Sequence record: NC_031047.1
Length of the DNA stretch: 64,000 nt
Origin: Escherichia phage HY03
Reading direction: 5' to 3' (one strand)
In this document: positions 11,882 through 60,567 of the stretch, piece after piece
Layout of the letters: every line of letters starts with the position of its first letter
How positions within the stretch are numbered: the first letter of the stretch is position 1
Made by a program: the position numbers and the translations under genes
The notes under the pieces: generated by a model
Told to the model about the DNA's origin: nothing
Databases searched by the model: none
What the model saw: only the letters and a program-made list of their open reading frames with translations

Positions 11882-12400
11882 ATGGCTTACTTTAACGAAT
11901 GTAGTCAACTGATCGAAGGCGCTGATAAAGCTCAAAATGAATACTGGGATATTCTTGGTGATGAAAAAGACCCGCTGCAGGTAATGCTTGACATGCAGAA
12001 ATCTCTGCAGATTCGTTTAGCTAAAGATAAACCTGAATATAACCGTCATCCTGATGATTTGGCTACCGCAGGTGAAGTTGTTGATTGGCTGCGCAATCAG
12101 AAAGACTATATTGATGATGAATTCCGCGAACTTCTGACTTCTCTTGGTGGTATGAGCAATGGCGAAAAAGATGCATCTGCTGTATGGAAACCTTGGAAGT
12201 CGCAGCATGGTGAACGCCGTGAAACTCTGATTACTGATTTGTCTCCACAAGACCAATTGGAAATTAAATTTGAAATGATTGATATTCTCCATTTCGTTCT
12301 GAACATGTTCCAAGGTCTTGGTCTTACAGCAGAAGAAATTTTTAAACTTTATTATCTGAAAAATGCTGAAAACTTTGCTCGTCAAGACCGAGGTTATTAA
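11882..12400 (+). CDS. 56: dCTP pyrophosphatase gp56 (MazG-like)
   Basis: ORF track 11867..12400; ATG at 11882 with AAGGA SD. Confidence 0.7.
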   Translation: MAYFNECSQLIEGADKAQNEYWDILGDEKDPLQVMLDMQKSLQIRLAKDKPEYNRHPDDLATAGEVVDWLRNQKDYIDDEFRELLTSLGGMSNGEKDASAVWKPWKSQHGERRETLITDLSPQDQLEIKFEMIDILHFVLNMFQGLGLTAEEIFKLYYLKNAENFARQDRGY

Positions 12401-12600
12401 TGGCTCGTTTAAATAAACGTCAACTTAAGAAAGCCCACAAGAAACGTATTGACCAGCTATTTAAAAATTATGACAAGGAGCTCACATACGAGCTCTTATC
12501 TAATCAGCTCCACAAAGCTTACACAATTAAAACTGGACATATACAATTAGGTAAGGTGCATGAAGAAGCCTTAAAATTAATTATAGAGCATTCAAAATGA
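12400..12600 (+). CDS. Hypothetical basic protein
   Basis: ORF track. Confidence 0.4.
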   Translation: MARLNKRQLKKAHKKRIDQLFKNYDKELTYELLSNQLHKAYTIKTGHIQLGKVHEEALKLIIEHSK

Positions 12601-12806
12601 AATTTGATTTTTATGCATGGCAAAAAGCCGGGAGACCGGCTAGTCGAGCATTTGGTTCTGATGGATATAATATTAGAGCTCATTGGAAGTTTAATGCTCC
12701 AGCCGATTATTCTCCGGTAATTATTAACGGTGATGTTGTTATATTAACTAAAATTGGGTATTTTAACGTTCCGCAAGAATTTATTATAAATAATCATGTA
12801 ATTTAA
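12597..12806 (+). CDS. Hypothetical protein
   Basis: ORF track. Confidence 0.4.
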   Translation: MKFDFYAWQKAGRPASRAFGSDGYNIRAHWKFNAPADYSPVIINGDVVILTKIGYFNVPQEFIINNHVI

Positions 12807-23157: not shown

Positions 23158-24708
23158 ATGATTAAGAATGAAATTAAAATTCTGAGCGATATTGAACATA
23201 TCAAAAAGCGTAGCGGCATGTACATTGGCTCTTCTGCTAATGAAATGCATGAGCGCTTTCTGTTTGGTAAATGGGAAAGTGTTCAGTATGTACCTGGTCT
23301 TGTTAAGCTTATTGATGAAATTATCGATAACTCAGTAGATGAAGGTATTCGTACTAAGTTTAAATTCGCAAATAAAATTAATGTTACTATTAAAAACAAT
23401 CAAGTAACAGTTGAAGATAACGGTCGCGGTATTCCACAGGCGATGGTTAAAACACCTACCGGTGAAGAAATTCCTGGTCCTGTTGCTGCGTGGACTATTC
23501 CAAAAGCAGGTGGTAACTTCGGTGATGATAAAGAACGCGTCACTGGCGGTATGAATGGTGTTGGTTCTAGTTTGACAAACATTTTTTCTGTGATGTTTGT
23601 CGGTGAAACTGGTGATGGTCAAAATAATATTGTAGTTCGTTGTTCAAATGGCATGGAAAATAAATCATGGGAAGATATTCCCGGAAAATGGAAAGGAACT
23701 CGTGTTACTTTCATTCCTGATTTTATGTCATTTGAAACTAATGAGTTGTCCCAAGTTTATCTTGACATTACATTAGATCGTCTCCAGACACTTGCTGTTG
23801 TTTATCCTGATATTCAATTTACCTTTAATGGTAAAAAGGTTCAGGGCAATTTTAAGAAATATGCACGCCAATATGATGAACATGCTATCGTTCAAGAACA
23901 AGAAAATTGTTCTATTGCGGTCGGTCGTTCACCGGATGGTTTTCGTCAATTAACATACGTCAATAACATTCACACTAAGAATGGTGGTCATCACATTGAC
24001 TGTGTTATGGATGATATTTGTGAAGACCTTATTCCACAAATCAAACGTAAGTTCAAAATTGATGTAACTAAAGCACGTGTCAAAGAATGTTTGACTATCG
24101 TTATGTTTGTTCGTGATATGAAAAACATGCGATTTGATTCTCAAACTAAAGAACGACTTACTTCTCCTTTTGGTGAAATTCGTAGTCATATTCAACTTGA
24201 TGCTAAAAAGATTTCACGTGCTATTTTAAATAATGAAGCAATTTTAATGCCGATTATTGAAGCTGCTTTGGCTCGTAAATTGGCGGCAGAAAAAGCAGCA
24301 GAAACTAAAGCAGCTAAAAAGGCTTCTAAAGCTAAGGTTCATAAACATATTAAAGCGAATCTTTGCGGTAAAGATGCTGACACTACTCTTTTCTTGACTG
24401 AGGGTGATTCGGCTATCGGATATCTTATTGATGTTCGTGATAAAGAACTTCACGGCGGTTATCCATTGCGTGGTAAAGTTCTTAATAGCTGGGGTATGTC
24501 ATATGCTGATATGCTTAAAAACAAAGAACTATTTGATATTTGCGCAATCACTGGATTAGTTCTTGGTGAAAAAGCGTTTGAAGAAAAAGAAGACGGTGAG
24601 TGGTTTACTCTCGAACTAAATGGTGATACAATTATTGTAAATGAAAATGATGAAGTACAGATTAATGGTAAATGGATAACAGTAGGTGAATTACGAAAAA
24701 ATCTATAA
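23158..24708 (+). CDS. 39: DNA topoisomerase II large subunit gp39 (GyrB-like ATPase)
   Basis: ORF track 23155..24708; MIKNEIKILSDIEHIKKRSGMYIGS; GHKL ATPase motifs. Confidence 0.85.
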   Translation: MIKNEIKILSDIEHIKKRSGMYIGSSANEMHERFLFGKWESVQYVPGLVKLIDEIIDNSVDEGIRTKFKFANKINVTIKNNQVTVEDNGRGIPQAMVKTPTGEEIPGPVAAWTIPKAGGNFGDDKERVTGGMNGVGSSLTNIFSVMFVGETGDGQNNIVVRCSNGMENKSWEDIPGKWKGTRVTFIPDFMSFETNELSQVYLDITLDRLQTLAVVYPDIQFTFNGKKVQGNFKKYARQYDEHAIVQEQENCSIAVGRSPDGFRQLTYVNNIHTKNGGHHIDCVMDDICEDLIPQIKRKFKIDVTKARVKECLTIVMFVRDMKNMRFDSQTKERLTSPFGEIRSHIQLDAKKISRAILNNEAILMPIIEAALARKLAAEKAAETKAAKKASKAKVHKHIKANLCGKDADTTLFLTEGDSAIGYLIDVRDKELHGGYPLRGKVLNSWGMSYADMLKNKELFDICAITGLVLGEKAFEEKEDGEWFTLELNGDTIIVNENDEVQINGKWITVGELRKNL

Positions 24709-25504
24709 TGACTTAATAGCGCGGGGTAAAACTCGCGTTTCTAAATTTAAAGGTGAAATTCACCATATCCTTCCAAGATCAATGGGAGGTTCTGATGATA
24801 AAGAAAATTTGGTAAAACTGACTTTTCGTGAACACTTTTTAGCACATTTTCTACTATATAAAATTCATCGTAATCGTGAAATGGCATATGCGATGAATAG
24901 AATGTTAAACACTGAAAAATATTTACGTTCTAGTAAATTATATGAAATTGCTAGAATTTACCATCAAAGAGCAGTATCTGAATGGTCAAAAAACTTTATG
25001 AAAGATAAAGTTTTAATGAGAAGTATTAAATCGGGTAAATGCGCCTTATTAATTAAAGGATCATTTAACCCAAAGGAATGGTGCGGTGTTAATAAAGGTG
25101 TTAAGCTTCCTGGAATTAAAGGCATGACATGCTTTAAAAATGAAAAAGGCGAAGTTTTTCGTCTTCATGTTAATGATCCACGCATTAAAGCTGAAAAATT
25201 AGTTGGTATTGGAAATACTGTTGCTGCTACTGCAAAAGCAGCTGAACTTGAAAAAGCGAAACCATGGTATAATAAATCAGCGACAAATCCAGAGGCTGTA
25301 AAATTAATACCAAATTTATATGAATGGTACGTCACGAAATATGACCCCGATCATTATAAACGAACGGGAGTTGCTAAATGGAAATCAGTTAATAATATAA
25401 CTGTGAATTCAAAATTATTCGGCCGAGCATTTAATGAATTTAAACGCGGCTGGATTCCTGATGAAAAGTTCTACGAGGTGTATAATGAAATTTGTAAAAA
25501 TTGA
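24686..25504 (+). CDS. mobA: HNH homing endonuclease (MobA-like), GTG start overlapping the end of gene 39
   Basis: 272 aa; HHILPRSMGGSDDKENLVKLTFREH HNH core; N-terminus parallels the mobE-like ORF at 57655. Confidence 0.65.
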   Translation: MNYEKIYNDLIARGKTRVSKFKGEIHHILPRSMGGSDDKENLVKLTFREHFLAHFLLYKIHRNREMAYAMNRMLNTEKYLRSSKLYEIARIYHQRAVSEWSKNFMKDKVLMRSIKSGKCALLIKGSFNPKEWCGVNKGVKLPGIKGMTCFKNEKGEVFRLHVNDPRIKAEKLVGIGNTVAATAKAAELEKAKPWYNKSATNPEAVKLIPNLYEWYVTKYDPDHYKRTGVAKWKSVNNITVNSKLFGRAFNEFKRGWIPDEKFYEVYNEICKN

Positions 25505-26017
25505 TTCTTCTAGCATTGATATGAAAAAATATAAATCGCAGAACAATGTCCGTCGTTCTATTAAATCCTCTTCAATGAACTATGCGAATGTCGCTATTAT
25601 GACAGACGCAGATCACGATGGATAGCCTTCGGGCTATCTATAGAAATACCTCATAATTAAGAGATTATTGGATTAGGTTCTATTTATCCTTCTCTGCTCG
25701 GATTTTTTAGTAATTGGCCAGAATTGTTTGAGCAAGGACGAATTCGTTTTGTCAAAACTCCTGTAATCATCGCTCAGGTCGGTAAAAAACAAGAATGGTT
25801 TTATACAGTCGCTGAATATGAGAGTGCCAAAGATGCTCTACCTAAACATAGCATCCGTTATATTAAAGGACTTGGTTCTTTGGAAAAATCTGAATATCGT
25901 GAGATGATTCAAAACCCAGTATATGATGTTGTTAAACTTCCTGAGAATTGGAAAGAGCTTTTTGAAATGCTCATGGGAGATAATGCTGACCTTCGTAAAG
26001 AATGGATGAGCCAGTAG
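25485..26017 (+). CDS. 60: Topoisomerase II subunit gp60, translated with a 50-nt ribosomal bypass (codons 1-46 at 25485..25622, resumes 25673..26017)
   Basis: MKFVKIDSS ... DADHDG-GGA-UAG, hairpin, landing GGA, then LGSIYPSLLGFFSNWPELFEQGRIRF in frame; matches the established T4 gene 60 bypass. Confidence 0.85.
25623..25672 (+). other. Gene 60 coding gap (translational bypass element: UAG stop, UUCG-loop hairpin, landing GGA)
   Basis: Sequence tagccttcgggctatctatagaaatacctcataattaagagattattgga seen directly. Confidence 0.85.
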
Positions 26018-26046
26018 TTTACTTTACCACAAGGATGTGGTATAAT
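26017..26046 (+). promoter_or_regulatory. T4-type early promoter
   Basis: GTTTACT ... 17 bp ... TATAAT; approximate. Confidence 0.45.
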
Positions 26047-26071
26047 TAATTGGGCAAATGAGGATATTGAA

Positions 26072-26275
26072 ATGAAATCATATAGAGTAAATTTAGAACT
26101 TTTTGATAAAGCAGTTCATCGAGAATATAGAATCATTCAACGCTTTTTCGATATGGGAGAAGCCGAAGAATTTAAAAACCGCTTTAAGGATATTAGAGAT
26201 AAAATTCAATCCGACACCGCAACTAAAGATGAACTACTAGAAGTTGCTGAAGTTATTAAACGCAATATGAATTAA
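26072..26275 (+). CDS. Hypothetical protein (rIIA.1 position)
   Basis: ORF track. Confidence 0.45.
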
Positions 26276-26285
26276 TGAGGAAATT

Positions 26286-28463
26286 ATGATTATCACCACT
26301 GAAAAAGAAACAATTCTTGGTAATGGTTCTAAATCAAAAGCATTTAGCATCACAGCATCTCCTAAAGTATTTAAAATTCTGTCATCTGATTTGTATACAA
26401 ACAAAATTCGCGCAGTAGTCCGTGAATTAATTACTAACATGATTGATGCTCATGCACTTAATGGAAATCCTGAAAAATTTATTATACAAGTTCCTGGACG
26501 TTTAGACCCACGATTTGTTTGTCGAGATTTTGGTCCGGGTATGAGTGATTTTGATATTCAAGGTGATGATAATTCTCCTGGTCTGTATAATTCATACTTC
26601 AGTTCATCTAAGGCTGAATCTAACGATTTCATTGGCGGATTTGGTTTAGGTTCTAAATCTCCATTTAGTTATACTGATACATTTAGTATTACTTCGTATC
26701 ATAAAGGTGAAATTCGTGGTTATGTAGCTTACATGGATGGTGATGGTCCACAGATTAAACCTACATTCGTAAAAGAAATGGGTCCAGATGATAAAACTGG
26801 TATTGAAATCGTAGTTCCAGTTGAAGAAAAAGACTTTAGAAACTTTGCTTATGAAGTTTCTTATATCATGCGACCGTTCAAAGATTTGGCTATCATTAAT
26901 GGTCTTGACCGCGAAATTGATTATTTTCCGGATTTTGATGACTATTACGGTGTAAATCCAGAAAGATACTGGCCAGATCGTGGTGGATTGTATGCTATCT
27001 ATGGTGGTATTGTTTATCCTATTGATGGTGTTATTAGAGACCGTAACTGGCTAAGCATTCGCAATGAAGTGAATTACATTAAGTTTCCAATGGGTTCACT
27101 TGATATTGCTCCATCACGTGAAGCTCTTTCATTGGATGATCGTACTCGTAAAAATATTATTGAACGAGTTAAAGAGCTTAGTGAGAAAGCATTTAATGAA
27201 GATGTAAAACGATTTAAAGAATCTACATCTCCTCGTCACACATACCGTGAATTGATGAAGATGGGGTATTCTGCTCGAGATTATATGATTAGTAATTCAG
27301 TCAAATTCACGACTAAAAATCTGTCATATAAAAAGATGCAGAGCATGTTTGAACCTGACAGTAAGTTATGCAATGCAGGGGTTGTGTATGAAGTAAATCT
27401 TGACCCTCGACTGAAACGCATTAAGCAAAGTCATGAAACTTCAGCCGTCGCATCAAGTTATCGTCTGTTTGGTATTAATACAACAAAAATTAATATCGTT
27501 ATTGATGATATTAAAAATCGTGTTAATATTGTTCGTGGATTAGCACATGCGTTAGATGATAGTGAATTTAATAACACTTTAAATATTCATCACAATGAGC
27601 GTCTTCTGTTTATTAATCCAGAAGTAGAATCGCAGATTGATTTACTCCCTGATATTATGGCGATGTTTGAAAGTGATGAAGTTAACATTCATTATTTGTC
27701 AGAAATCGAAGCTTTAGTTAAAAGCTATATTCCAAAGGTAGTTAAAAGTAAAGCTCCTCGTCCTAAAGCTGCTACAGCATTTAAGTTTGAAATTAAAGAC
27801 GGGCGCTGGGAAAAAGAGGAATTATTTACGCTCACATCAGAAGCAGATGAAATTACTGGTTATGTAGCGTATATGCATCGTTCTGATATTTTCTCTATGG
27901 ATGGTACTACATCTCTTTGTCATCCATCTATGAATATTTTGATTCGTATGGCTAATCTTATTGGCATTAATGAATTTTATGTTATTCGTCCGCTTTTACA
28001 GAAAAAGGTAAAAGAACTCGGTCAGTGCCAATGTATTTTTGAAACTTTGCGTGATTTATATGTAGATGCTTTTGATGATGTAGATTATGATAAGTACGTA
28101 GGTTATTCAAGTTCAGCTCAACGATATATTGATAAAATTATCAAGTATCCTGAGTTAGATTTTATGATGAAGTACTTCAGTACAGATGAAGTTTCTGAAG
28201 AATATACACGACTCGCTAATATAGTTAGTTCATTGCGCGGTGTATATTTTAATGGTGGAAAAGATACCATTGGTCATGACATCTGGACAGTAACTAATCT
28301 TTTTGATGTATTATCAAATAATGCTTCAAAAAACAGTGATAAAATGGTTGCTGAGTTTACCAAGAAATTCCGCATTGTTTCCGACTTCATCGGTTATCGC
28401 AACTCTTTAAGTGATGATGAAGTTTCTCAAATCGCTAAAACTATGAAGGCCCTTGCGGCCTAA
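26286..28463 (+). CDS. rIIA: rIIA protein
   Basis: 725 aa; GHKL-like N-terminal ATPase motif region; size and position as T4 rIIA. Confidence 0.85.
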
Positions 28464-37587: not shown

Positions 37588-38382
37588 TTATACTCTTGGA
37601 CCATATATTGCTCCAACATTTTGCCATGTTGGAGCTGATCCTATAACAGCATATCCGGCAGCGCCACCAGCTCCAACTTTTAGAACTTTACCGCCATCAT
37701 GCCAGGCATTTTGTCCATTTGCGCCAGCATCACCACCCTGGCCAGAGTGAGCATTACCATAATTATAACCACCTCCTGGGCCATCATAAGAAGCTGCGCC
37801 ACCGGAATAACCTCCGCCTCCTCCTGGGCCAAATGGTCTTCCTCCACCGCCACCAATATCTTGCCACCTTGCGCCAGAGTGAGGACGATAAGCGATACCG
37901 CCACCACCGCCACCACCGCCACAAATTACTCCACCATTATTAATTCTTAATCGACCACCAATGTCATTTTGAATACAATGTCCACCCTGTTGACCATTAC
38001 CATCTCCACCAGAATGAGTCCATCCACCTTGTCCACCTCTGCCCCACATATGAGCTCCACCGCTAATATTCAACTGAACATATTCATTTGGTGTATCTCC
38101 ATACATGAAGAATAAAGGAACATCTCTAGAATATGATACCAAATTTCCTGTGATATTAAACACTATAGGTGCACTACCTGCCTCAAAACATCTATCTCGG
38201 AACCATTGACCATTAAAGTTATGGTCTGCTCCAAGTGTATGAATTACTTCAACAGATCGACCTATCATATTACTCATCCAAAACGGAATTCCCATTCTCA
38301 ATCTCTGCGCGGCACCACCCATCCAAGGGTCTCCAGTTTGTACCCTCGCAGACGATCCTACCCACGGTCCTGTTACTGCCAT
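37588..38382 (-). CDS. 38: Tail fibre adhesin gp38, T2-type with glycine-rich motifs
   Basis: ORF track 37588..38394; ATG at 38382 after GGAGG; poly-Gly runs (GGGGGGG) separating variable segments. Confidence 0.8.
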
Positions 38383-38413
38383 ATAAACCTCCAAGGGGCC
38401 GAAGCCCCTCTTA

Positions 38414-41400
38414 TTATTTTAACAACGATTTAACTAATGCTTTAAGTTCTTCGATTTCTGATTTAAGTTCTGCAATTTCTGCAGTATGCTCATTGATTGC
38501 AGCTGTATTTAAACCAATTACACCGTTATAGTTCAAACGAAGTAAAGCTTCACCATCCGGGTCACCTTCAACTAATTCAGGCAAAATAGCTTGAACTTCT
38601 TGAGCTATCAAACCAGCGTTAGGTTCCCATTTCTGATTACCTTCTTCATCTGTTCCACGTTTCTGCATATAAGTGTAACCGTTAATTTTAGAAAGCTTCT
38701 GAGAAGCATTTTCAAATTTAACGAGGTCTTTTTTAACGCGAATATCAGAACGGACATAAACATCACGGACAAACGTTGAATAGCTGTCATTCGCCTGGAC
38801 TAGATGACCGTGAGAAATAATCGCTTTATCAACTTCGGTCCACAAACCACCATGACTTCCCCATAGTCCTGAGTGTTCTTGATACATCGTACCCCATGAT
38901 GCAATATGCTGTCCGTTAGCAAACATGTTAATACGACCATCACCACCATGAACTAATCCGGTATCATTATCACCAATAACAAGACATGGTCCAGTCCATG
39001 CAGGGTCACCTCCACCAGCTGATAATCTTGCTCCAGTTTGAACCATGTTAGGAGCATACAGAACTCCATCGTGGTGGAATTCATATATAGCTTGCGGGTC
39101 AGAACCATTTTCCTGGTTACCTACACGAATAATACCTTGTGCCCATTTGTTAGTGATACGGCGCATACCAAAATCTACACCAGATACGTATCCTTCATTC
39201 GTAATAACAGATTTTCCTTTGATAATTGGATAATAACTATCATTACCGACGTAGCCAAAATCCACAAATATCGGAGCTTCTTGACGCCATTGACTTCCCC
39301 AATCGCCAGCTTGGTGCGCAGTCCAGTATGCTCCATTTATATAAAGACGATCCCTATTAAAATTAAAAGTAGCAGACCCTTGAGGAGATAAAGCAATTTC
39401 TCCGACCTCATTAATGTTAACACCGCTGTTAGTTTGGAAACTGTAAAATGATATAGTATTATCGGCGCCGCCGTTACCAACATACCAGTTATCAACGCCT
39501 GCTTTTTGTCCTTTCATATAACCGGATTCGCTTGCAGCACTATTAATAACAATAACATCCGAGTTGGCATTAAGAGTTAAACGGCCTGTCATTGTATCGC
39601 CTTCTTTCGAAACACGAGTCGCAATAGCATCGCGAATATTTGTAATGTCTCCTGCTGCAGTAAACGTTTTCCAGATATCAGACCAGATGTTACCATTGCG
39701 AGCAATAGTAGCTTCGCCGCCGCCGACAGAAACGTTATCTGGGAAGTTAACAGTACCGTCTTGATTAAAACGAGACGTATGGCCTTGTGAACCATCTTCT
39801 TTCAGATGATGAATAACGAATGTACCAGAATTAATTTCAGTACCTAAAGACCAAACTGCTTTACCATTTAAGAATTTCTGTTTAACAATAGGATAATATT
39901 TGCTTACAGCATCATCATCAATTTCCTGGAAAATAGGAGCCGCTTGAGCATATTGAACGGCATAACCTCCAGCCCCAGCTCCATGACCAGCAAATTTAAT
40001 ATAGCCATTTGCTGCGAACGTATTGTAACTTGATTGTAAATCTGGAATAGTAACTTTACCAGTATCTAAAGCCATACTAAACGGGCGAAGTGGACCGATA
40101 TCGCCGTGTTTACCTTCACCGTAAGCAGTTGGAATAATATGAAGACTGCCTTCTGAACGTCTAAAAATGGCTCCATAATCTGCATTCCAAATGCGAAGAC
40201 CATTTACAGCATTTGTCGCGATTTCACCGGCTGCGCTGATTGTACCGTCAAATGTAGCATTTTTTACTACTGTCAAGTTTTCATTAACAATCTGGGTGCC
40301 ATTTATAACCGATTCGACTTTACCTGCAGTTGTTCGTTGAATATAACTCATCCAGCTAGTTGCATCAGAAATTTCCATGACATTTTTGCGATTACCTTCG
40401 CTAGGATTAATAAATGTATTACCCCACACAGAAATTGTCATGTTATCCACAGAACTACTACCTGTTGTGTTACCTCTAAACATCAGCGTAGAAGAATTAT
40501 TACGACCATCAATATTAACAGAACCACCAATAACGTCAATATTACCAGGAGTAACTAACAAACCGCCGTGAGTATTAATGTTTGTGACACCTTTACCGCG
40601 GAAATAGTGATGATATCTACCGCCTTGATAATATCCCAAAAGAGTCTGACCATCTCCAAACGCGTTATTATCATGATATGTAACAACAGTAGCGAGAGCA
40701 TAGTTTTCAGTAGGAGGAGTAGTTAAATCGGTTCCATTGGTAGAATATCCAGCTACAAATTTTCTTAGGCTAGTTGTTTCGCTAGGGCTAAATAAAAATG
40801 TTTTCGTTCCATTATTGACGCTGAAATAATATCCATCCTGGTGCCATTTAAATCCAGTATCATTATCCCCTAAAGCAATACTAGATGGTCCTAGTATTGA
40901 ATAATCTTTATTGCCAGGTGTTAAACCGATAGAAATTGAGTGACTCGATTTAATTCCGCCGCTCCATGTAAATGACCAAAGATAAGCGTCTAGCCCATCT
41001 CCGCTGTACCAAGTTATTCCATCATTATCTTTAACTTCATGGAAAATGCCAGAACCGACTGCATTACGCATGACACGGAGATGATTAATAGCAGTAGTGC
41101 TTTCAGACAGTGGAACATTATCTGCCATCGAATAAATGTCATAATCACCTGTAGATTTATTATTAGTAATGACTTTGTTGGTCAAAATCTGAGGAGTTGA
41201 CATAGATTTCCATGCTGATACTTCAGGTGAAGTAAATAGGCCACTACCTGAAAATGCATAAGTGCTTTCGCTACCAGCGGCGTAGTCTTGAACCCTGATA
41301 TTAAGTACTTGTGTAGTTAAACCGTCATTAGCAGGAGAAAAAATAATACCGCGTTCACGGTCGGCGGAATCATGAAAACGAACGTGTGCCGTTCCTGAAC

Positions 41401-41743
41401 TTTTTGTAATAAGTTCTCCACCCTCAGTCATAATCTGCCCGGCGGCAATAATATCGCGAGTTACTCGAGCAATACCAGTTAAATTAAAATTACCTGTCTG
41501 AGTGAAAGTGCCATTTAAAGTATAATCACCAGTTTGATTATAGTTTCCTTTATGAATAACATTTCCGTCAATACTACCGCCCTTAGCAAAACCCAGATCA
41601 ATGATATTTCCTTGGTCATCTTTAGTAAAAAGTACGCGGTCTTTTAAATTTATAGCCAATTCACCTTCGGCTAATACTGAAGCGGCAGGACGTGCTCCTG
41701 CGGTTTTGCTTCTTTTAAATTGTATTTGTTTTAAAGTAGCCAT
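38414..41743 (-). CDS. 37: Long tail fibre distal subunit gp37
   Basis: 1109 aa; N-terminus [13 protein letters not shown]; C-terminal SDIRVKKDL ... coiled-coil tail. Confidence 0.9.
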
Positions 41744-49080: not shown

Positions 49081-49730
49081 TTAAACTCCGCATGCCTGCT
49101 GGTGGTGAAAGATATATTGATGGTAAATCAGTTTATAAATTATACTTAATGATAAAACAACACATGAATGGAAAGTATGATGTAATTAAGTATAATTGGT
49201 GCATGCGGGTGTCTGATGCCGCTTATCAAAAGCGAAGGGATAAGTATTTTTTCCAGAAGTTATCAGAAAAATATAAATTAAAGGAACTTGCTTTAATCTT
49301 TATAAGCAATCTTGTTGCTAACCAAGATGCTTGGATTGGTGACATCTCTGACGCTGATGCACTTGTGTTTTATCGTGAATATATCGGACGCTTAAAGCAA
49401 ATTAAATTTAAGTTTGAAGAAGATATTCGCAACATTTATTATTTTAGTAAAAAAGTTGAAGTTTCTGCTTTTAAAGAAATCTTTGAGTATAATCCAAAAG
49501 TTCAGTCGAGTTATATTTTTAAACTACTTCAATCGAATATAATTTCGTTTGAGACGTTTATCTTGCTTGATTCATTTTTAAATATAATTGATAAACACGA
49601 TGAACAGACTGATAATTTAGTCTGGAATAATTATTCTATAAAGTTAAAGGCTTATAGAAAAATTTTAAATATTGATTCACAGGAAGCTAAAAAAGTTTTT
49701 ATTGAAACTGTGAAATCTTGTAAGTATTAA
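49077..49730 (+). CDS. 59: Helicase loader gp59
   Basis: 217 aa upstream of gene 32. Confidence 0.8.
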   Translation: MIKLRMPAGGERYIDGKSVYKLYLMIKQHMNGKYDVIKYNWCMRVSDAAYQKRRDKYFFQKLSEKYKLKELALIFISNLVANQDAWIGDISDADALVFYREYIGRLKQIKFKFEEDIRNIYYFSKKVEVSAFKEIFEYNPKVQSSYIFKLLQSNIISFETFILLDSFLNIIDKHDEQTDNLVWNNYSIKLKAYRKILNIDSQEAKKVFIETVKSCKY

Positions 49731-49738
49731 TTGCTTAT

Positions 49739-49746
49739 TATAAATA
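49739..49746 (+). promoter_or_regulatory. Late promoter TATAAATA upstream of gene 32 (a TTGCTTAT MotA-like box lies just 5')
   Basis: Seen in sequence. Confidence 0.45.
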
Positions 49747-49763
49747 GATTATAATTATCTCAC

Positions 49764-49830
49764 TGACCAGCTATGAGGTCATACATCGTCATAGCACCAA
49801 CTGTTAATTAAATTAAATTAAATTAAATTA
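49764..49830 (+). promoter_or_regulatory. Gene 32 translational operator: H-type pseudoknot (49764..49795) plus (UUAAA)n repeats (49806..49830)
   Basis: ugacc/ggtca and gctatga/tcatagc pairings and 5x aatta repeat seen; matches the known gp32 autoregulatory site. Confidence 0.7.
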
Positions 49831-55400: not shown

Positions 55401-57655
55401 TTAATGTTATCAAAAGTAGTGGTGTTTCTCAGAGCTTTGACCCGCAAAAAATTATTAAAGTTTTATCTTGGGCAGCTGAAGGAACATCAGTAGATCCTTA
55501 TGAATTATATGAAAATATTAAATCTTATCTCCGTGATGGAATGACAACTGATGATATTCAGACTATTGTCATTAAGGCTGCTGCAAATTCTATTTCAGTT
55601 GAAGAGCCTGATTACCAATATGTAGCCGCTCGCTGTTTAATGTTTGCTCTTCGTAAGCATGTTTATGGGCAGTATGAACCACGTTCATTTATTGACCATA
55701 TTTCTTATTGTGTAAATGCAGGTAAATATGACCCTGAATTGTTGTCAAAATATTCTGCAGAAGAAATTACATTTTTAGAATCAAAAATTAAGCACGAGCG
55801 GGATATGGAATTTACTTATTCCGGGGCGATGCAATTAAAAGAAAAATATCTAGTTAAAGATAAAACCACTGGTCAAATTTATGAAACTCCGCAGTTTGCA
55901 TTTATGACTATTGGAATGGCACTGCATCAAGATGAACCTGTTGATAGATTAAAACATGTTATCCGTTTTTATGAAGCAGTATCTACTCGACAGATTTCAT
56001 TGCCAACTCCTATTATGGCTGGTTGTCGTACTCCTACTCGACAGTTCAGTTCATGCGTTGTTATTGAGGCAGGAGATTCGCTGAAGTCTATCAATAAGGC
56101 TTCTGCTTCAATTGTTGAATATATCTCCAAACGAGCTGGAATCGGCATTAACGTTGGTATGATTCGTGCCGAAGGTTCTAAGATTGGCATGGGTGAAGTA
56201 CGCCATACTGGTGTTATTCCTTTTTGGAAACATTTTCAGACTGCTGTTAAATCATGCTCACAGGGTGGAATTCGTGGCGGCGCTGCTACTGCTTATTATC
56301 CTATTTGGCATTTGGAAGTTGAAAATCTTCTCGTTTTGAAAAATAACAAAGGCGTAGAAGAAAACCGCATCCGTCATATGGATTATAGTGTTCAGCTGAA
56401 TGATTTGATGATGGAACGATTCGGAAAGAATGATTATATTACTTTGTTCAGTCCGCATGAAATGGGTGGCGAGCTTTATTATTCTTATTTTAAAGACCAA
56501 GACCGTTTCCGTGAATTATACGAAGCAGCAGAAAAAGACCCTAATATTCGTAAAAAGCGTATTAAAGCCCGTGAACTATTTGAATTGCTCATGACTGAAC
56601 GTTCAGGGACAGCAAGGATTTATGTACAGTTCATTGATAATACGAATAACTATACTCCGTTTATTCGTGAAAAGGCACCTATTCGTCAGAGTAACTTGTG
56701 CTGTGAAATTGCTATTCCAACAAATGATGTGAATAGCCCTGATGCTGAAATTGGATTGTGTACTCTCTCTGCATTCGTACTGGATAATTTTGACTGGCAA
56801 GACCAAGATAAAATTAATGAATTGGCAGAAGTCCAAGTTCGTGCTCTTGATAATCTTTTGGATTACCAAGGATATCCAGTTCCTGAAGCAGAAAAAGCTA
56901 AAAAGCGTCGTAACCTCGGTGTAGGTGTTACCAACTATGCAGCTTGGCTGGCAAGTAACTTTGCTTCTTATGAAGATGCTAACGATTTAACACATGAACT
57001 ATTTGAGAGATTACAGTATGGACTCATTAAAGCATCCATTAAGCTCGCCAAAGAAAAAGGACCTTGCGAATATTATTCAGACACTCGTTGGTCTCGAGGC
57101 GAATTACCTATCGACTGGTACAATAAAAAGATTGACCAAATCGCAGCTCCAAAATACGTTTGTGACTGGTCGGCGCTGCGGGAAGACCTTAAGCTCTTTG
57201 GCATCCGTAATAGCACATTATCAGCACTTATGCCATGTGAGTCATCTTCCCAAGTTTCTAACAGTACAAATGGTATCGAGCCTCCACGTGGACCAGTCTC
57301 TGTTAAAGAATCAAAAGAGGGCTCCTTTAATCAAGTCGTGCCCAATATTGAGCATAACATAGACCTTTACGACTATACATGGAAATTAGCTAAGAAAGGT
57401 AATAAACCTTATCTTACGCAGGTAGCTATTATGCTGAAATGGGTATGTCAATCAGCTTCAGCGAATACATATTATGACCCGCAGATTTTTCCAAAAGGAA
57501 AGGTTCCAATGTCTGTAATGATTGATGACCTTTTGTATTTTTGGTATTTTGGCGGAAAAAATTTCTATTATCATAATACTCGTGATGGTTCCGGTACTGA
57601 TGATTACGAAATAGAAACTCCAAAAGCCGATGATTGCGCAGCGTGTAAATTGTAA
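55391..57655 (+). CDS. nrdA: Ribonucleotide reductase large subunit NrdA
   Basis: 754 aa; ATP-cone N-terminus; class I RNR motifs. Confidence 0.9.
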   Translation: MQLINVIKSSGVSQSFDPQKIIKVLSWAAEGTSVDPYELYENIKSYLRDGMTTDDIQTIVIKAAANSISVEEPDYQYVAARCLMFALRKHVYGQYEPRSFIDHISYCVNAGKYDPELLSKYSAEEITFLESKIKHERDMEFTYSGAMQLKEKYLVKDKTTGQIYETPQFAFMTIGMALHQDEPVDRLKHVIRFYEAVSTRQISLPTPIMAGCRTPTRQFSSCVVIEAGDSLKSINKASASIVEYISKRAGIGINVGMIRAEGSKIGMGEVRHTGVIPFWKHFQTAVKSCSQGGIRGGAATAYYPIWHLEVENLLVLKNNKGVEENRIRHMDYSVQLNDLMMERFGKNDYITLFSPHEMGGELYYSYFKDQDRFRELYEAAEKDPNIRKKRIKARELFELLMTERSGTARIYVQFIDNTNNYTPFIREKAPIRQSNLCCEIAIPTNDVNSPDAEIGLCTLSAFVLDNFDWQDQDKINELAEVQVRALDNLLDYQGYPVPEAEKAKKRRNLGVGVTNYAAWLASNFASYEDANDLTHELFERLQYGLIKASIKLAKEKGPCEYYSDTRWSRGELPIDWYNKKIDQIAAPKYVCDWSALREDLKLFGIRNSTLSALMPCESSSQVSNSTNGIEPPRGPVSVKESKEGSFNQVVPNIEHNIDLYDYTWKLAKKGNKPYLTQVAIMLKWVCQSASANTYYDPQIFPKGKVPMSVMIDDLLYFWYFGGKNFYYHNTRDGSGTDDYEIETPKADDCAACKL

Positions 57656-58296
57656 TGAATTATCAAAAAATCTATAATGACCTAATTTCCCGAGCTCAGG
57701 CTCGGGAATCTTTATCAGAATATAAAGAGACACATCATATAATCCCTAGATGTATGGGAGGTTCTGATGATAAGGAAAATTTAGTTGAATTAACAGGTAG
57801 AGAGCATTTTATAGCGCATTGGCTTTTATGTAAAATATATGACACTCCAGGATTAAAGAAAGCTTTTGGTTTAATGTGCTTGACTGGTAAAAATCGCTCA
57901 TATAAAATTTCTTCTCAACTATACGAATTAGGTAGACGACGTTTGTCTGAAGCTGCTATAGGACGTGAAGTTTCTACAGAAACCAGAGAAAAGATAAGTA
58001 GAGCTCTTAAAGGAAGGAAATTTACTAAAGAGCATTTAGCTCGCATGAGAAAACCTAAAACTGAAGAAGCTAAAAAGAATATAGCTGCTGCTAAAGTCGG
58101 CGTGCTTAATCCAATGTATGGTACAATCTCTCCAACGAGAGATGTTCCTCATACTAAAGAAACTCGCGATTTGATTTCTTTGAGAACTAAACAAGGTGCA
58201 GAGTATCCGCCGTGTCCGCATTGTGGAAAGAAAGTTAATAAAGGTAATGCTTTAAGATGGCATTATGATAAATGTAAATTTAAGGATTCTAAATGA
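57655..58296 (+). CDS. mobE: Free-standing HNH homing endonuclease (MobE-like) between nrdA and nrdB
   Basis: 213 aa; HHIIPRCMGGSDDKENLVELTGREH; CPHCGKK...WHYDKCK zinc finger. Confidence 0.7.
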   Translation: MNYQKIYNDLISRAQARESLSEYKETHHIIPRCMGGSDDKENLVELTGREHFIAHWLLCKIYDTPGLKKAFGLMCLTGKNRSYKISSQLYELGRRRLSEAAIGREVSTETREKISRALKGRKFTKEHLARMRKPKTEEAKKNIAAAKVGVLNPMYGTISPTRDVPHTKETRDLISLRTKQGAEYPPCPHCGKKVNKGNALRWHYDKCKFKDSK

Positions 58297-58968
58297 GTAC
58301 AGTTTTTAATACATCACCTGTTAATATTTTGACTGAGCCGATGTTTTTTGGTTCTGGATTGGGTTTAGCTCGATATGATATTCAACGGCATCGAGTATTT
58401 GAAGAACTTATTGAGAAGTCTTTGTCATTTTTCTGGCGTCCTGAAGAAGTAAACTTGATGATGGATGCTGCACAATTTAACAAGCTTCCTCAGTATCAGC
58501 AGAATATTTTTACTAACAACTTGAAGTATCAATCACTTCTAGATAGCATTCAGGGTCGTGCACCGTCTGCTGTACTTATGTCATTAATTTCAGACCCAAG
58601 TCTTGATACATGGGTTGCTACATGGACTTTTAGTGAAACTATTCACAGTCGTTCATATACTCATATCATGCGAAATCTTTATACTGATCCATCGAAGGTA
58701 TTTGATGAGATTGTACTAGATGAAGCTATCATGAAACGTGCTGAATCTATCGGTCGCTATTATGATGATGTTCTGACTAAAACCCGTGAATGGGAAAATG
58801 CTAAAGAATTTACAGAACTAGCTAAAGAATCTCCTGATGCTGTTTTTCGTTTAAATCGAGCTATTAAACAAGAAGCCGAAGCTAAACGAGCACTAATGAA
58901 ATCTCTTTACCTTTGCCTTCATGTAATCAATGCATTGGAAGCTATTCGTTTTTATGTATCTTTCGCGT
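58293..58968 (+). CDS. nrdB: Ribonucleotide reductase small subunit NrdB exon 1
   Basis: Ends ...EAIRFYVSFA plus the first nucleotide of a Cys codon; in-frame TAA follows. Confidence 0.8.
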
Positions 58969-59081
58969 AAAATGCGCCTTTAAGCAGTAATGCTTATCGA
59001 AAACTCCTTTAATTGCTGGAAAATCCAGAAATGGAAAACTAGCAGCCAAGGTTTTGCTTGCACCTTTAATTAGTATAATAT

Positions 59082-59119: not shown

Positions 59120-59929
59120 TTGAATTATAGAAAAATTTGGATAGATGCTAACGGACCGATACCTAAAGATTCTGATGGAAGAACGTATGAAATCCATCAT
59201 AAAGATGGTAACCGTGAAAATAATGATTTAGATAATTTGATGTGTCTTTCTATACAGGAACATTATGATATACATTTAGCTCAAAAAGATTACCAGGCAT
59301 GTCACGCTATAAAGCTTAGAATGAAATATTCTCCTGAAGAAATTTCTGAATTAGCTTCTAAAGCTGCAAAATCTAGAGAAATCCAGGTTTTTAATATCCC
59401 TGAAGTGAGAGCTAAAAATATTGCCTCTATTAAATCTAAGATAGAAAACGGTACATTTCATCTTTTAAGTGGTGAAATACAACGTAAATCTAATTTAAAT
59501 CGGGTTGCATTAGGTATACATAATTTTCAACAAGCTGAGCATATTACAAAAGTTAAAGAACGTAATATTGCAGCTATAAAAGAAGGTACTCATGCATTTT
59601 GCGGTGGTAAAATGCAGTCAGAAACTCAGTCAAAACGAGTAAATGACGGTTCACATCATTTCTTATCAGAAGACCATAAGAAAAGAACATCAGCAAAAAC
59701 ATTAGAAATGGTTAAGAACGGGACCCATCCTGCACAAAAAGAAATCACATGTGATTTCTGTGGTCACACTGGTAAAGGTCCTGGATTTTATCTAAAACAT
59801 AATGACAGATGTAAATTAAATCCAAATAGAATTCAATTGAATTGTCCATATTGTGATAAGAAAGATTTATCACCATCAACATATAAACGATGGCACGGCG
59901 ACAATTGCAAAACAAGGTTCAACGACTAG
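59120..59929 (+). CDS. Intron-encoded HNH homing endonuclease (I-TevIII-like), TTG start
   Basis: 269 aa; EIHHKDGNRENNDLDNLMCLSIQEH HNH core; several CxxC zinc motifs. Confidence 0.75.
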   Translation: MNYRKIWIDANGPIPKDSDGRTYEIHHKDGNRENNDLDNLMCLSIQEHYDIHLAQKDYQACHAIKLRMKYSPEEISELASKAAKSREIQVFNIPEVRAKNIASIKSKIENGTFHLLSGEIQRKSNLNRVALGIHNFQQAEHITKVKERNIAAIKEGTHAFCGGKMQSETQSKRVNDGSHHFLSEDHKKRTSAKTLEMVKNGTHPAQKEITCDFCGHTGKGPGFYLKHNDRCKLNPNRIQLNCPYCDKKDLSPSTYKRWHGDNCKTRFND

Positions 59930-60064
59930 TCTTCGGACGTAGGGTCAAGCGACTCGAAATGGGGAGAATCCCTCCGGGATTGTGATATAGTCTGGACTGC
60001 ATGGTAACATGCAGCAGTTCATAAGAGAACGGGTTGAGAATTAGCGAGCTCAATCGAACATACG

Positions 60065-60567
60065 GTACCTTTAACTTCCATAAGAACATGGAAATCATGG
60101 AAGGTAATGCCAAGATTATGAAGTTCATTGCACGTGATGAGCAGCTTCACCTTAAAGGCACCCAATATATTATTCGTCAACTTCAATCCGGTACTGATGG
60201 CGATGAATGGGTTAAAATTGCTCAAGAGTGTGAACAAGAAGCAGTTGATATTTTCATGGAAGTTAACCGCCAAGAAAAAGATTGGGCAGTTCATTTATTT
60301 AAAGATGGTGATGTTCCTGGATTAAATACAAATAGCATGTGGAGCTTTATTGATTACTTAACTGTATCTCGTATGAAACAGTGCGGTCTTCCATGCCCAA
60401 TTACCGATGCTCCGGTTAAACATCCATATCCTTGGATTCGTGAATACCTTAATTCTGATAATGTTCAATCCGCGCCACAAGAAGTAGAACTGTCATCTTA
60501 CCTTGTTGCACAGATTGATAATGATGTTGATGATAAAGTTATGATGAGTTTTAAAAAATACTTTTAA
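60065..60567 (+). CDS. nrdB: Ribonucleotide reductase small subunit NrdB exon 2
   Basis: ...TFNFHKNMEIMEGNAKIMKFIARDEQLHL; RNR R2 C-terminus. Confidence 0.8.

What the first reader, a model, noticed from the sequence alone, without database searches (positions are those of the whole stretch)
24686..26017. mobA-like HNH endonuclease plus gene 60 with the 50-nt translational bypass element
The topoisomerase large subunit is split after gp39. Downstream come an HNH endonuclease ORF (GTG start overlapping the gp39 stop) and gene 60, whose reading frame is interrupted after codon 46 (GGA) by UAG, a UUCG-loop hairpin and 47 further nt, resuming at a matching GGA. The sequence matches the classic T4 gene 60 ribosome-hopping element as I recall it. 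Its presence in a genome that otherwise differs from T4 (glycosyltransferase, gp38, nrdB intron) fits the idea that mobA plus the bypass element is a mobile cassette.
Basis: partly seen in the sequence, partly recalled or inferred. Interest (0 to 1): 0.55.

Follow-up and report, generated by a model that had tools for sequence, protein, structure and literature searches.

The report
T4-type mobA and gene 60 bypass cassette
This is a near-exact copy of the textbook phage T4 cassette, a homing-endonuclease gene plus the 50-base stretch that ribosomes hop over in topoisomerase gene 60, so it is real but already well described.

Summary
The window is a T4-like phage (Tequatrovirus). Its exact gp39 and MobA proteins are already in NCBI under Escherichia phage HY03.

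Compared with an unsplit gene 39 (phage HP3), the topoisomerase II large-subunit gene is interrupted by a 1106-nt element at 24576..25681. The element replaces 64 nt of the host gene and contributes:
- a 43-aa C-terminal tail on gp39;
- an intact 272-aa HNH endonuclease gene, mobA (GTG 24686..25504);
- the first 46 codons of gene 60 (25485..25622);
- the 50-nt coding gap (25623..25672).

The gap has a take-off GGA, an in-frame UAG, a UUCG-loop hairpin, a GAG 6 nt before the landing site and a matching landing GGA. Its sequence is identical to T4. The joined protein (…DADHDG-LGSIYPS…) is collinear with unsplit homologues.

About 8% (40) of roughly 496 close relatives in the phage collection carry the cassette, all at 97–99.4% identity. 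The nearest relatives of the flanking DNA mostly lack it, which fits homing.

All of this matches published work (Huang 1988; Bonocora 2011; Manning & Atkins 2022). The only differences from T4 are V11I and L18S in the nascent peptide, both shared with phage HY01, and V12A in MobA. Already known; low interest.

The parts
23158..24708 (+). Gene 39, the N-terminal part of the topoisomerase II large subunit (516 aa). Positions 23158-24575 are host-derived (aa 1-473). Positions 24576-24708 are the element-encoded 43-aa C-terminal extension (FEEKEDGEWF...GELRKNL).
   Evidence: ORF list; Pfam HATPase_c and DNA_gyraseB; 4 aa differences from T4T gp39; the exact protein is recorded for Escherichia phage HY03; boundary set by alignment to unsplit HP3 gene 39.
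24576..25681 (+). The complete MobA mobile element, 1106 nt. It replaces 64 nt of the unsplit gene (HP3 gene 39 nt 1419-1482), a net insertion of 1042 nt.
   Evidence: Identity to unsplit HP3 gene 39 stops after 24575 and resumes at 25682. Length, the 64-nt replacement and the extra 9 nt after the landing codon match the published clade 1 description. GC is 33% against 36-37% in the flanks.
24686..25504 (+). mobA, an intact 272-aa free-standing HNH homing endonuclease gene with a GTG start. The HNH region is around residues 24-54 (HHILPRSMGGSDDKENLVKLTFREHFLAH).
   Evidence: phrog_655 homing endonuclease, E 1.8e-57; weak Pfam HNH hit; 2 aa differences from T4T MobA and 1 from JEP6. The N-terminus aligns from residue 1 with the ATG-initiated MobE of the same window (57% identity over 95 aa), which supports the GTG start. 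The internal GTG used in the JEP6 annotation is GCG here.
25485..25622 (+). Gene 60 segment 1, codons 1-46 (MKFVKIDSSSIDMKKYKSQNNVRRSIKSSSMNYANVAIMTDADHDG). This is the nascent-peptide signal. The last 16 codons (25575-25622) are the element's own copy of the replaced topoisomerase segment (HomR).
   Evidence: V11I and L18S relative to T4 are both shared with HY01 and JEP6. Y16, Q19, V22 and R24 are conserved across six cassette lineages, and position 18 is L, S or A. HomR is 40/56 nt identical to the HP3 host sequence.
25583..25610 (+). Predicted 5' stem-loop upstream of the take-off site.
   Evidence: RNAfold prediction. The sequence is identical to T4 across 25551-25746. The role is taken from the literature.
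25618..25641 (+). Take-off stem-loop: a 10-bp stem with a UUCG tetraloop (25628-25631). It contains the take-off GGA (25620-25622) and the in-frame UAG (25623-25625) in its 5' arm.
   Evidence: Folding gives -14.7 kcal/mol for the hairpin. Across six distinct cassettes 95.8% of cells pair, 4 pairs have compensatory changes, and the slid controls pair at 17-42%.
25623..25672 (+). The 50-nt coding gap that ribosomes bypass. It includes a Shine-Dalgarno-like GAG at 25661-25663, 6 nt 5' of the landing GGA at 25670-25672.
   Evidence: Identical to the T4 gap. Stops in all frames and a frame shift. Annotated as the bypass region in the T4, T4T and HY01 records.
25673..26017 (+). Gene 60 segment 2, codons 47-160 plus the stop codon. 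The first 9 nt (25673-25681) still belong to the element. The rest is the host topoisomerase C-terminal part.
   Evidence: Collinear with the unsplit HP3 protein (...DADHDGLGSIYPSLLGFF...). Pfam TOPRIM_C. phrog_543 alignment is continuous across the junction.
25692..25736 (+). Predicted stem-loop 3' of the landing site, in the region of the published 3' SL (forward slippage barrier).
   Evidence: RNAfold prediction only. Sequence identical to T4 up to 25746. Role from the literature.

Best explanation
This is a clade 1 (T4-type) copy of the MobA mobile element, sitting in the topoisomerase II large-subunit gene of a T4-like coliphage.

The 1106-nt element splits the gene into gene 39 and gene 60. 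It supplies the new C-terminal tail of gp39, the HNH homing endonuclease MobA, and the new N-terminus of gp60. It also carries its own diverged copy of the 64 nt it replaced, and the 50-nt coding gap.

Mechanism, inferred from sequence identity to the experimentally studied T4 element:
1. Ribosomes translate 46 codons of gene 60.
2. [quoted passage not shown]
3. Peptidyl-tRNA(Gly) detaches and the ribosome slides over 50 nt.
4. [quoted passage not shown] This yields a 160-aa gp60 that assembles with gp39 and gp52.

At the DNA level, MobA nicks unsplit gene 39 of a co-infecting relative, and repair copies the cassette in. The 50-nt insert disrupts the MobA target, so a carrier phage is immune to its own nuclease.

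Shown here: the anatomy, the boundaries, the intact ORFs, the collinearity of the joined protein, covariation in the hairpin and the patchy distribution. Inferred from the literature: the bypassing itself, MobA activity and the immunity function.
For: - The gap and 196 nt around it are identical to T4. The whole cassette is 98.4% identical to T4T and 99.4% to HY01 and JEP6.
- The element boundaries 24576/25681, the 1106-nt length, the 64 nt replaced, the 43-aa C-terminal tail, the 46-aa N-terminal segment, the 9 extra nt after the landing codon and HomR at 71% identity all match the published description of the element.
- MobA is an intact 272-aa HNH protein.
- The joined gp60 is collinear with unsplit homologues.
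- The take-off hairpin shows compensatory changes across Escherichia, Proteus, Salmonella, Shewanella and Acinetobacter phage cassettes. These include covariation of the third base of the take-off codon with its pairing partner. [quoted passage not shown]
- 40 records carry the cassette out of about 496 Tequatrovirus-level matches to gene 39.
- The closest relatives of the upstream flank are unsplit (RB14, RB32, RB33 and others). Relatives of the downstream flank are a mix of carriers and non-carriers.
- The mechanism and the homing experiments are summarised.
Against: - No experiment on this allele exists.
- The nascent peptide differs from T4 at V11I and L18S. Position 18 varies naturally (L, S or A), so an effect on efficiency is unlikely but untested.
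- The excess identity of the cassette over its flanks is modest (about 99% against about 97%). T-even genomes are mosaics, so ordinary recombination could contribute to the patchy distribution.
- The mobA GTG start has only a weak Shine-Dalgarno sequence.
Confidence: 0.96

Rival explanations
1. The cassette is an immobile relic. It is inherited vertically and shuffled only by general recombination, and MobA is no longer an active homing enzyme in this phage. Bypassing still operates, because topoisomerase needs it.
For: - The literature reports endonuclease decay or loss in some carriers while the bypass is kept.
- The T4 reference record shows mobA broken into fragments.
- The identity excess of the cassette over its flanks is small.
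Against: - The ORF is full length, with only 1-2 aa differences from the T4T, HY01 and JEP6 alleles.
- The HNH motif is intact, and the N-terminus is conserved with MobE.
- Cassette copies in different Tequatrovirus species are 97.7-99.4% identical, while the nearest flank relatives lack the cassette.
Confidence: 0.1
2. Gene 60 is not decoded by bypassing. Either the two segments are made as separate polypeptides, or the 50 nt are removed from the RNA before translation.
For: Some automated annotations of related phages call two separate small ORFs (JEP6, S16, KARL-1).
Against: - The landing frame is open only from 25661, and the first possible in-frame start after the gap is a TTG at 25724.
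- The 17 codons before that TTG (LGSIYPSLLGFFSNWPE) are identical in protein sequence to unsplit homologues, so they are translated.
- The matched GGA codons, the stop, the hairpin and the internal GAG are conserved or co-vary across distant cassettes.
- Published work on the identical T4 sequence shows the gap stays in the mRNA and is bypassed.
Confidence: 0.01
3. The interruption is a sequencing or assembly artefact.
For: None found here. The old T4 reference does carry 11 single-base insertions in mobA that are absent from T4T, HY01 and this window, which shows that such errors can occur in this region.
Against: The same 50-nt gap and the same element boundaries occur in 40 independent records. 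The exact MobA and gp39 proteins are found independently in NCBI.
Confidence: 0.005

Closest known systems
Phage T4 gene 60 programmed translational bypass ('hop'; Huang et al. 1988, Weiss et al. 1990, cited)
   Same: The 50-nt gap is identical. So are the take-off and landing GGA, the UAG, the UUCG hairpin, the GAG 6 nt before landing, and the predicted 5' and 3' stem-loop sequences (25551-25746 identical to T4). The junction is the same, between Gly46 and Leu47.
   Different: There are two substitutions in the nascent peptide (V11I, L18S) and one silent change at 25550. The genome background is not T4: it has a T2-type gp38, another glycosyltransferase and a different set of homing endonuclease genes.
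MobA mobile element, clade 1 (Bonocora et al. 2011 PNAS; Manning & Atkins 2022 bioRxiv 10.1101/2022.08.31.505936; exemplar phage HY01)
   Same: Same insertion site, 1106-nt length, 64 nt replaced, 43-aa C-terminal tail, 272-aa MobA, 46-aa N-terminal segment with HomR, and 9 nt of element after the landing codon. Only 7 nt differ from HY01 over the whole element.
   Different: HY01 and JEP6 carry two gap substitutions (25639 U>C, 25642 A>U) that lengthen the hairpin (-20.2 against -14.7 kcal/mol). The window keeps the T4 version. MobA has V12A, which removes an internal GTG.
MobE and other free-standing HNH Mob endonucleases of T4-like phages
   Same: The N-terminal HNH domain is 57% identical to the MobE encoded in the same window (57655..58296). 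Both are free-standing homing endonuclease genes next to their target gene.
   Different: MobE sits between nrdA and nrdB. It does not split a reading frame and needs no recoding signal.
'byp' bypass inserts in Magnusiomyces capitatus mitochondria (Lang et al. 2014, cited)
   Same: They work alike: matched take-off and landing codons, a slow-to-decode codon after take-off, a hairpin, and inserts of mobile origin.
   Different: There is no sequence relationship and no associated endonuclease. Many copies occur per genome, and the translation system is eukaryotic-organellar.

Membership tests
T4 gene 60 translational bypass element | [quoted passage not shown] | tested here: met
   GGA at 25620-25622 and GGA at 25670-25672. 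The gap 25623-25672 is 50 nt and identical to T4.
T4 gene 60 translational bypass element | [quoted passage not shown] | tested here: met
   UAG at 25623-25625. There are further stops in all frames of the gap.
T4 gene 60 translational bypass element | Take-off stem-loop with a stable tetraloop, with the take-off codon in the 5' arm | tested here: met
   10-bp stem and UUCG loop at 25618-25641. Covariation across six cassettes: 4 compensatory pairs, 95.8% of cells paired.
T4 gene 60 translational bypass element | Nascent-peptide signal in codons ~14-46 (Y16, Q19, V22, R24, T40 and others) | tested here: met
   KYKSQNNVRRSIKSSS...MTDADHDG. All residues listed as conserved are present. L18S lies at a naturally variable position.
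T4 gene 60 translational bypass element | Shine-Dalgarno-like GAG 5-7 nt 5' of the landing codon, in an AU-rich context | tested here: met
   GAG at 25661-25663, then AUUAUU, then GGA. Criterion taken.
T4 gene 60 translational bypass element | The joined product is collinear with the unsplit topoisomerase large subunit | tested here: met
   ...AIMTDADHDG|LGSIYPSLLG... equals the HP3 unsplit protein. The phrog_543 alignment is continuous across the junction.
T4 gene 60 translational bypass element | Ribosomes actually bypass the gap, giving a full-length gp60 product | not testable with these tools
   Inferred from identity with the experimentally studied T4 sequence.
MobA mobile element (HNH homing cassette in the Topo II large-subunit gene) | Insertion at the conserved site in the Toprim region (RB14 nt 1399-1419), replacing 55-75 nt; element length 1097-1106 nt | tested here: met
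   The break falls after HP3 nt 1418 (aa 473). 64 nt are replaced and the element is 1106 nt (criteria).
MobA mobile element (HNH homing cassette in the Topo II large-subunit gene) | In-frame C-terminal extension on ORF1, and an N-terminal extension with HomR on ORF2, both overlapping the endonuclease ORF out of frame | tested here: met
   The C-terminal extension is 43 aa and the N-terminal extension 46 aa. The overlaps are 20 nt (before the gene 39 stop codon) and 20 nt. HomR is 71% identical to the host sequence.
MobA mobile element (HNH homing cassette in the Topo II large-subunit gene) | Encodes an HNH-family endonuclease of 269-279 aa | tested here: met
   272-aa intact ORF. phrog_655 E 1.8e-57. 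The Pfam HNH hit is weak and below the curated cut-off (20.1 against 21.4 bits). 99% identical to T4T MobA.
MobA mobile element (HNH homing cassette in the Topo II large-subunit gene) | Patchy presence among very close relatives that otherwise have an unsplit gene | tested here: met
   40 carriers among about 496 close gene 39 matches. The nearest relatives of the upstream flank are unsplit.
MobA mobile element (HNH homing cassette in the Topo II large-subunit gene) | MobA nicks the unsplit target, the cassette is copied in, and the gap protects the carrier | not testable with these tools
   Known from Bonocora et al. 2011 as summarised. The paper itself could not be opened.

The most novel reading that the evidence does not exclude
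The most novel reading still open is that this phage is a natural recipient of the cassette. It has a T2/T6-like background: a T2-type gp38 adhesin, a non-T4 glycosyltransferase, and no segA, segF or segG. It would then be a field counterpart of the laboratory T4 x T2 homing cross.

Its allele would also be an intermediate not present in the phage collection searched, combining an HY01-type nascent peptide (I11, S18) with the T4-type, weaker take-off hairpin. Bypass efficiency could then differ measurably from both T4 and HY01.
Probability: 0.3. Interest if true: 0.2.

Novelty: already known. Interest (0 to 1): 0.1.

Why it matters
It adds little new biology. The element, its decoding mechanism, its mobility and its distribution in T4 relatives are all published, and these exact proteins are already deposited for phage HY03.

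It has two practical uses:
- Annotation. Gene 60 must be written as a two-segment join. Several public records of related phages instead split it into unrelated small ORFs.
- A natural allele series. T4, this window and HY01 differ at nascent-peptide residues 11 and 18 and in hairpin strength, which could be used to measure how these signals tune bypass efficiency.

Tried and rejected
- An exact scan of IMG/VR with the 19-nt take-off hairpin core found four contigs. All are an unrelated intergenic hairpin in another phage, with no topoisomerase context. They were dropped as chance hairpin identity.
- Rfam has no family for this element. The only hit in 24400-26300 was a sub-threshold sRNA match on the other strand.
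- The first global MAFFT alignment against the unsplit gene misplaced the 3' junction. Exact-seed anchoring also failed because of SNPs. Local pairwise alignment then gave clean boundaries.
- The primary paper (Bonocora 2011) is not held under its DOI or PMC id. Its results are cited only through later papers.
- Promoter scans (sigma-70-like, T4 late TATAAATA, MotA box) gave nothing above chance inside the cassette.
- Minus-strand ORFs in the region are at most 56 aa and were not pursued.
- I considered whether the L18S change breaks the nascent-peptide signal. I rejected this because position 18 is L, S or A in natural cassettes while the key residues are kept.
Full report
**What is there.** The region was read directly and its ORFs listed.
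- Gene 39 (23158..24708, 516 aa) has the ATPase and gyrase-B domains of a type II topoisomerase large subunit.
- An ORF starting with GTG at 24686 runs to 25504 (272 aa). It overlaps the last 23 nt of gene 39 in another frame.
- Gene 60 starts at ATG 25485, behind a GAGG Shine-Dalgarno sequence, and overlaps the end of the 272-aa ORF by 20 nt.
- After 46 codons the frame reaches GGA (25620-25622) and then UAG (25623-25625).
- The stretch 25618-25641 folds into a 10-bp hairpin with a UUCG loop.
- A second GGA lies at 25670-25672, and the topoisomerase frame resumes at 25673.
- The gap 25623..25672 is exactly 50 nt. It shifts the frame and has stops in all three frames.

**Identity with T4.** The 1501 nt around the finding are 98.6% identical to modern T4 sequences and 99.3% to phage HY01. 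In a three-way alignment, the gap and the whole stretch 25551-25746 are identical to the T4 reference. That stretch covers the published 5' stem-loop, the take-off stem-loop, the internal GAG, the landing site and the 3' stem-loop region. The only differences from T4 in gene 60 segment 1 are V11I, L18S and one silent change. HY01 and JEP6 share all three. HY01 and JEP6 also carry two gap substitutions that extend the hairpin (-20.2 against -14.7 kcal/mol). The window keeps the T4 state at both positions.

**Where the window comes from.** No record in the phage collection has exactly this allele; the best match has 2 mismatches in 216 nt. However, the exact MobA and gp39 proteins are on record in NCBI for Escherichia phage HY03. 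The window is therefore very probably that phage or a near-identical one. The collection searched does not contain it: the best 25-kb match is JEP6 at 96.3%.

**Boundaries of the insert.** Phage HP3 has an unsplit 605-aa gene 39. Local alignment shows that identity with the window ends after 24575 and resumes at 25682. The element is thus 24576..25681, 1106 nt. It replaces 64 nt of the unsplit gene (HP3 nt 1419-1482). In order, the element carries:
- a 43-aa in-frame tail for gp39;
- mobA;
- the 30-aa unique N-terminus of gp60;
- a 16-codon diverged copy of the replaced topoisomerase segment (71% nt identity, same protein motif NxAIMTDADHDG);
- the 50-nt gap;
- 9 more nt after the landing codon.

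Each of these numbers matches the description of the MobA element in Manning & Atkins 2022. That paper gives 1097-1106 nt, 64 nt deleted in the HY01 example, a 43-aa C-terminal and a 46-aa N-terminal extension, 9 extra nt in clade 1 and HomR at 67-81% identity.

**The proteins.**
- MobA matches a phage homing-endonuclease family over its full length (phrog_655, E 1.8e-57).
- It carries an HNH motif, with a weak Pfam hit below the curated cut-off.
- It differs from T4T MobA at 2 residues and from JEP6 MobA at 1.
- Its N-terminus aligns from residue 1 with the ATG-initiated MobE encoded elsewhere in the window (57% identity over 95 aa). This supports the GTG at 24686 as the real start.
- The alternative internal GTG used in the JEP6 annotation is GCG here.

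The conceptually joined 160-aa gp60 matches the gp60 family end to end. It also aligns without interruption across the junction to unsplit large subunits. The residues on either side of the junction equal the HP3 protein.

**Independent support that the RNA signals are selected.** I fetched divergent cassettes from phages of Proteus, Salmonella (S16), Shewanella and Acinetobacter. All of them keep:
- a stop codon right after the take-off codon;
- a stable four-base loop (UUCG, or UUAG in the Shewanella phage Thanatos-1) closing a hairpin that contains the take-off codon;
- a take-off and a landing codon read by the same tRNA;
- the conserved nascent-peptide residues Y16, Q19, V22 and R24.

On an alignment of six distinct hairpins, 95.8% of cells pair and 4 of 12 pairs show compensatory double changes. 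One of these involves the third base of the take-off codon. Partners slid by 1 to 3 columns pair at only 17-42%. Position 18 of the peptide is L, S or A in nature, so the L18S change here is unlikely to matter.

**Mobility.**
- In the phage collection, 40 records carry the cassette, all at 97.0-99.4% identity. About 496 records match gene 39 at 95% identity or more.
- The cassette in the window is 98.4-99.4% identical to the copies in T4T, HY01 and JEP6. The adjacent host part of gene 39 is 96.7-97.5% identical to those carriers, and equally close (96.7%) to cassette-free HP3.
- The 18 best database matches to the upstream flank all have unsplit genes (RB14, RB32, RB33 and others). Only 2 of the top 60 are carriers.
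- The downstream flank's best matches are a mixture of carriers and non-carriers.

Presence of the cassette therefore does not track the flanks, as expected for a homing element. In these mosaic genomes, ordinary recombination cannot be excluded as a contributor.

The rest of the window confirms that the genome is not T4:
- the segA/beta-gt region is replaced by another glycosyltransferase;
- segF and segG are absent;
- gp38 is the T2-type adhesin;
- the nrdB intron holds a full-length endonuclease ORF.

**Mechanism.**
- Shown here: the anatomy, the boundaries, the intact ORFs, collinearity, covariation and distribution.
- Taken from experiments on the identical T4 sequence: the nascent peptide, the UAG and the A-site hairpin stall the ribosome at Gly46; peptidyl-tRNA detaches; the ribosome slides 50 nt; the internal GAG pairs with 16S rRNA; and the tRNA re-pairs at the landing GGA with roughly 50% efficiency.
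- Also from the literature: MobA nicks unsplit gene 39 of a co-infecting phage and the cassette is copied in, while the 50-nt insert protects the carrier from its own nuclease.

**Comparison with what is known, and verdict.** This is the T4 gene 60 bypass inside a clade 1 MobA element. Every defining feature that can be tested in silico is met. It is already known in kind and in detail, and even this copy is already deposited. Interest is low. The remaining value is correct annotation and a small natural allele series for studying bypass efficiency.

**Dead ends.** These were the IMG/VR hairpin scan, Rfam, the promoter scans and the unavailable primary paper.

Noticed in passing
window 3514..5999 (+): uvsX, the RecA-like recombinase gene, is broken into two ORFs that look like the two halves of a split intein, with a free-standing endonuclease gene between them:
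- ORF 3514..4443 is the UvsX N-terminal part and ends in a Hint-like segment (CVIAGTKIQMSDG...).
- ORF 4487..5209 is a 240-aa protein with a NUMOD3 motif.
- ORF 5352..5999 starts with an intein C-terminal splicing motif (...GIVTHN|T) and continues as the UvsX C-terminal domain.

This is the 'fractured gene' arrangement of Dassa et al. 2009. Only 7 of 473 matching phage records hold most of this stretch (ELT1 at 100%, pSe_SNUABM_01 at 99.9%), and they annotate it merely as two recombination proteins plus an endonuclease. The one literature search run here found no paper describing a fractured uvsX.
   Followed up: partly
window 59120..59929 (+), inside the nrdB intron (nrdB exons about 58293..58970 and 60034..60567): The nrdB intron holds a full-length 269-aa HNH_3 endonuclease ORF. 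T4 has only the truncated I-TevIII, and the window has about 477 nt more than T4 at this point.
   Followed up: partly
window 1956..3436 (+): The T4 segA/beta-glucosyltransferase region is replaced. In its place are a 213-aa ORF with no Pfam hit, whose N-terminus (KKWYIGSHDG) suggests a possible GIY-YIG-type endonuclease, and a 280-aa glycosyltransferase of the TET-associated (TAGT) family.
   Followed up: partly
window 12360..12785 and 49728..49767: The homing endonuclease genes segF (between genes 56 and soc) and segG (between genes 32 and 59) of T4 are absent. mobA, mobE (57655..58296) and the td intron region are present. The set of homing endonuclease genes is therefore a different mix from T4.
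   Followed up: no
window 37588..41743 (-): gp38 is a 268-aa glycine-rich T2-type adhesin rather than the T4-type assembly chaperone, and the distal part of gp37 has no T4 match.
   Followed up: no
L001 (NC_000866.4 T4 reference) against window 24818..25025: The T4 reference record has 11 scattered single-base insertions in mobA relative to this window and HY01; T4T mobA matches the window's ORF length. These insertions break mobA into 'mobA pseudogene' and '60.1'. Most other T4 records span the same 1501 nt as the window. This looks like sequencing errors in the reference, rather than a truly decayed gene in all T4 stocks. One T4 record (MT984581) does annotate a split mobA.
   Followed up: partly
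L006-L009 (IMG/VR contigs), e.g. L006:13159-13177: The 19-nt core of the take-off hairpin (GGATAGCCTTCGGGCTATC) occurs identically in an intergenic position of an unrelated phage lineage in IMG/VR, with no topoisomerase context. It is probably just a stable UUCG hairpin.
   Followed up: yes
hit H39, PQ349265.1 Escherichia phage CJY920, 53156-55570: In this cassette-bearing phage the 1501-nt query maps in two pieces spread over 2415 nt. That suggests a further insertion of about 900 nt close to the cassette.
   Followed up: no
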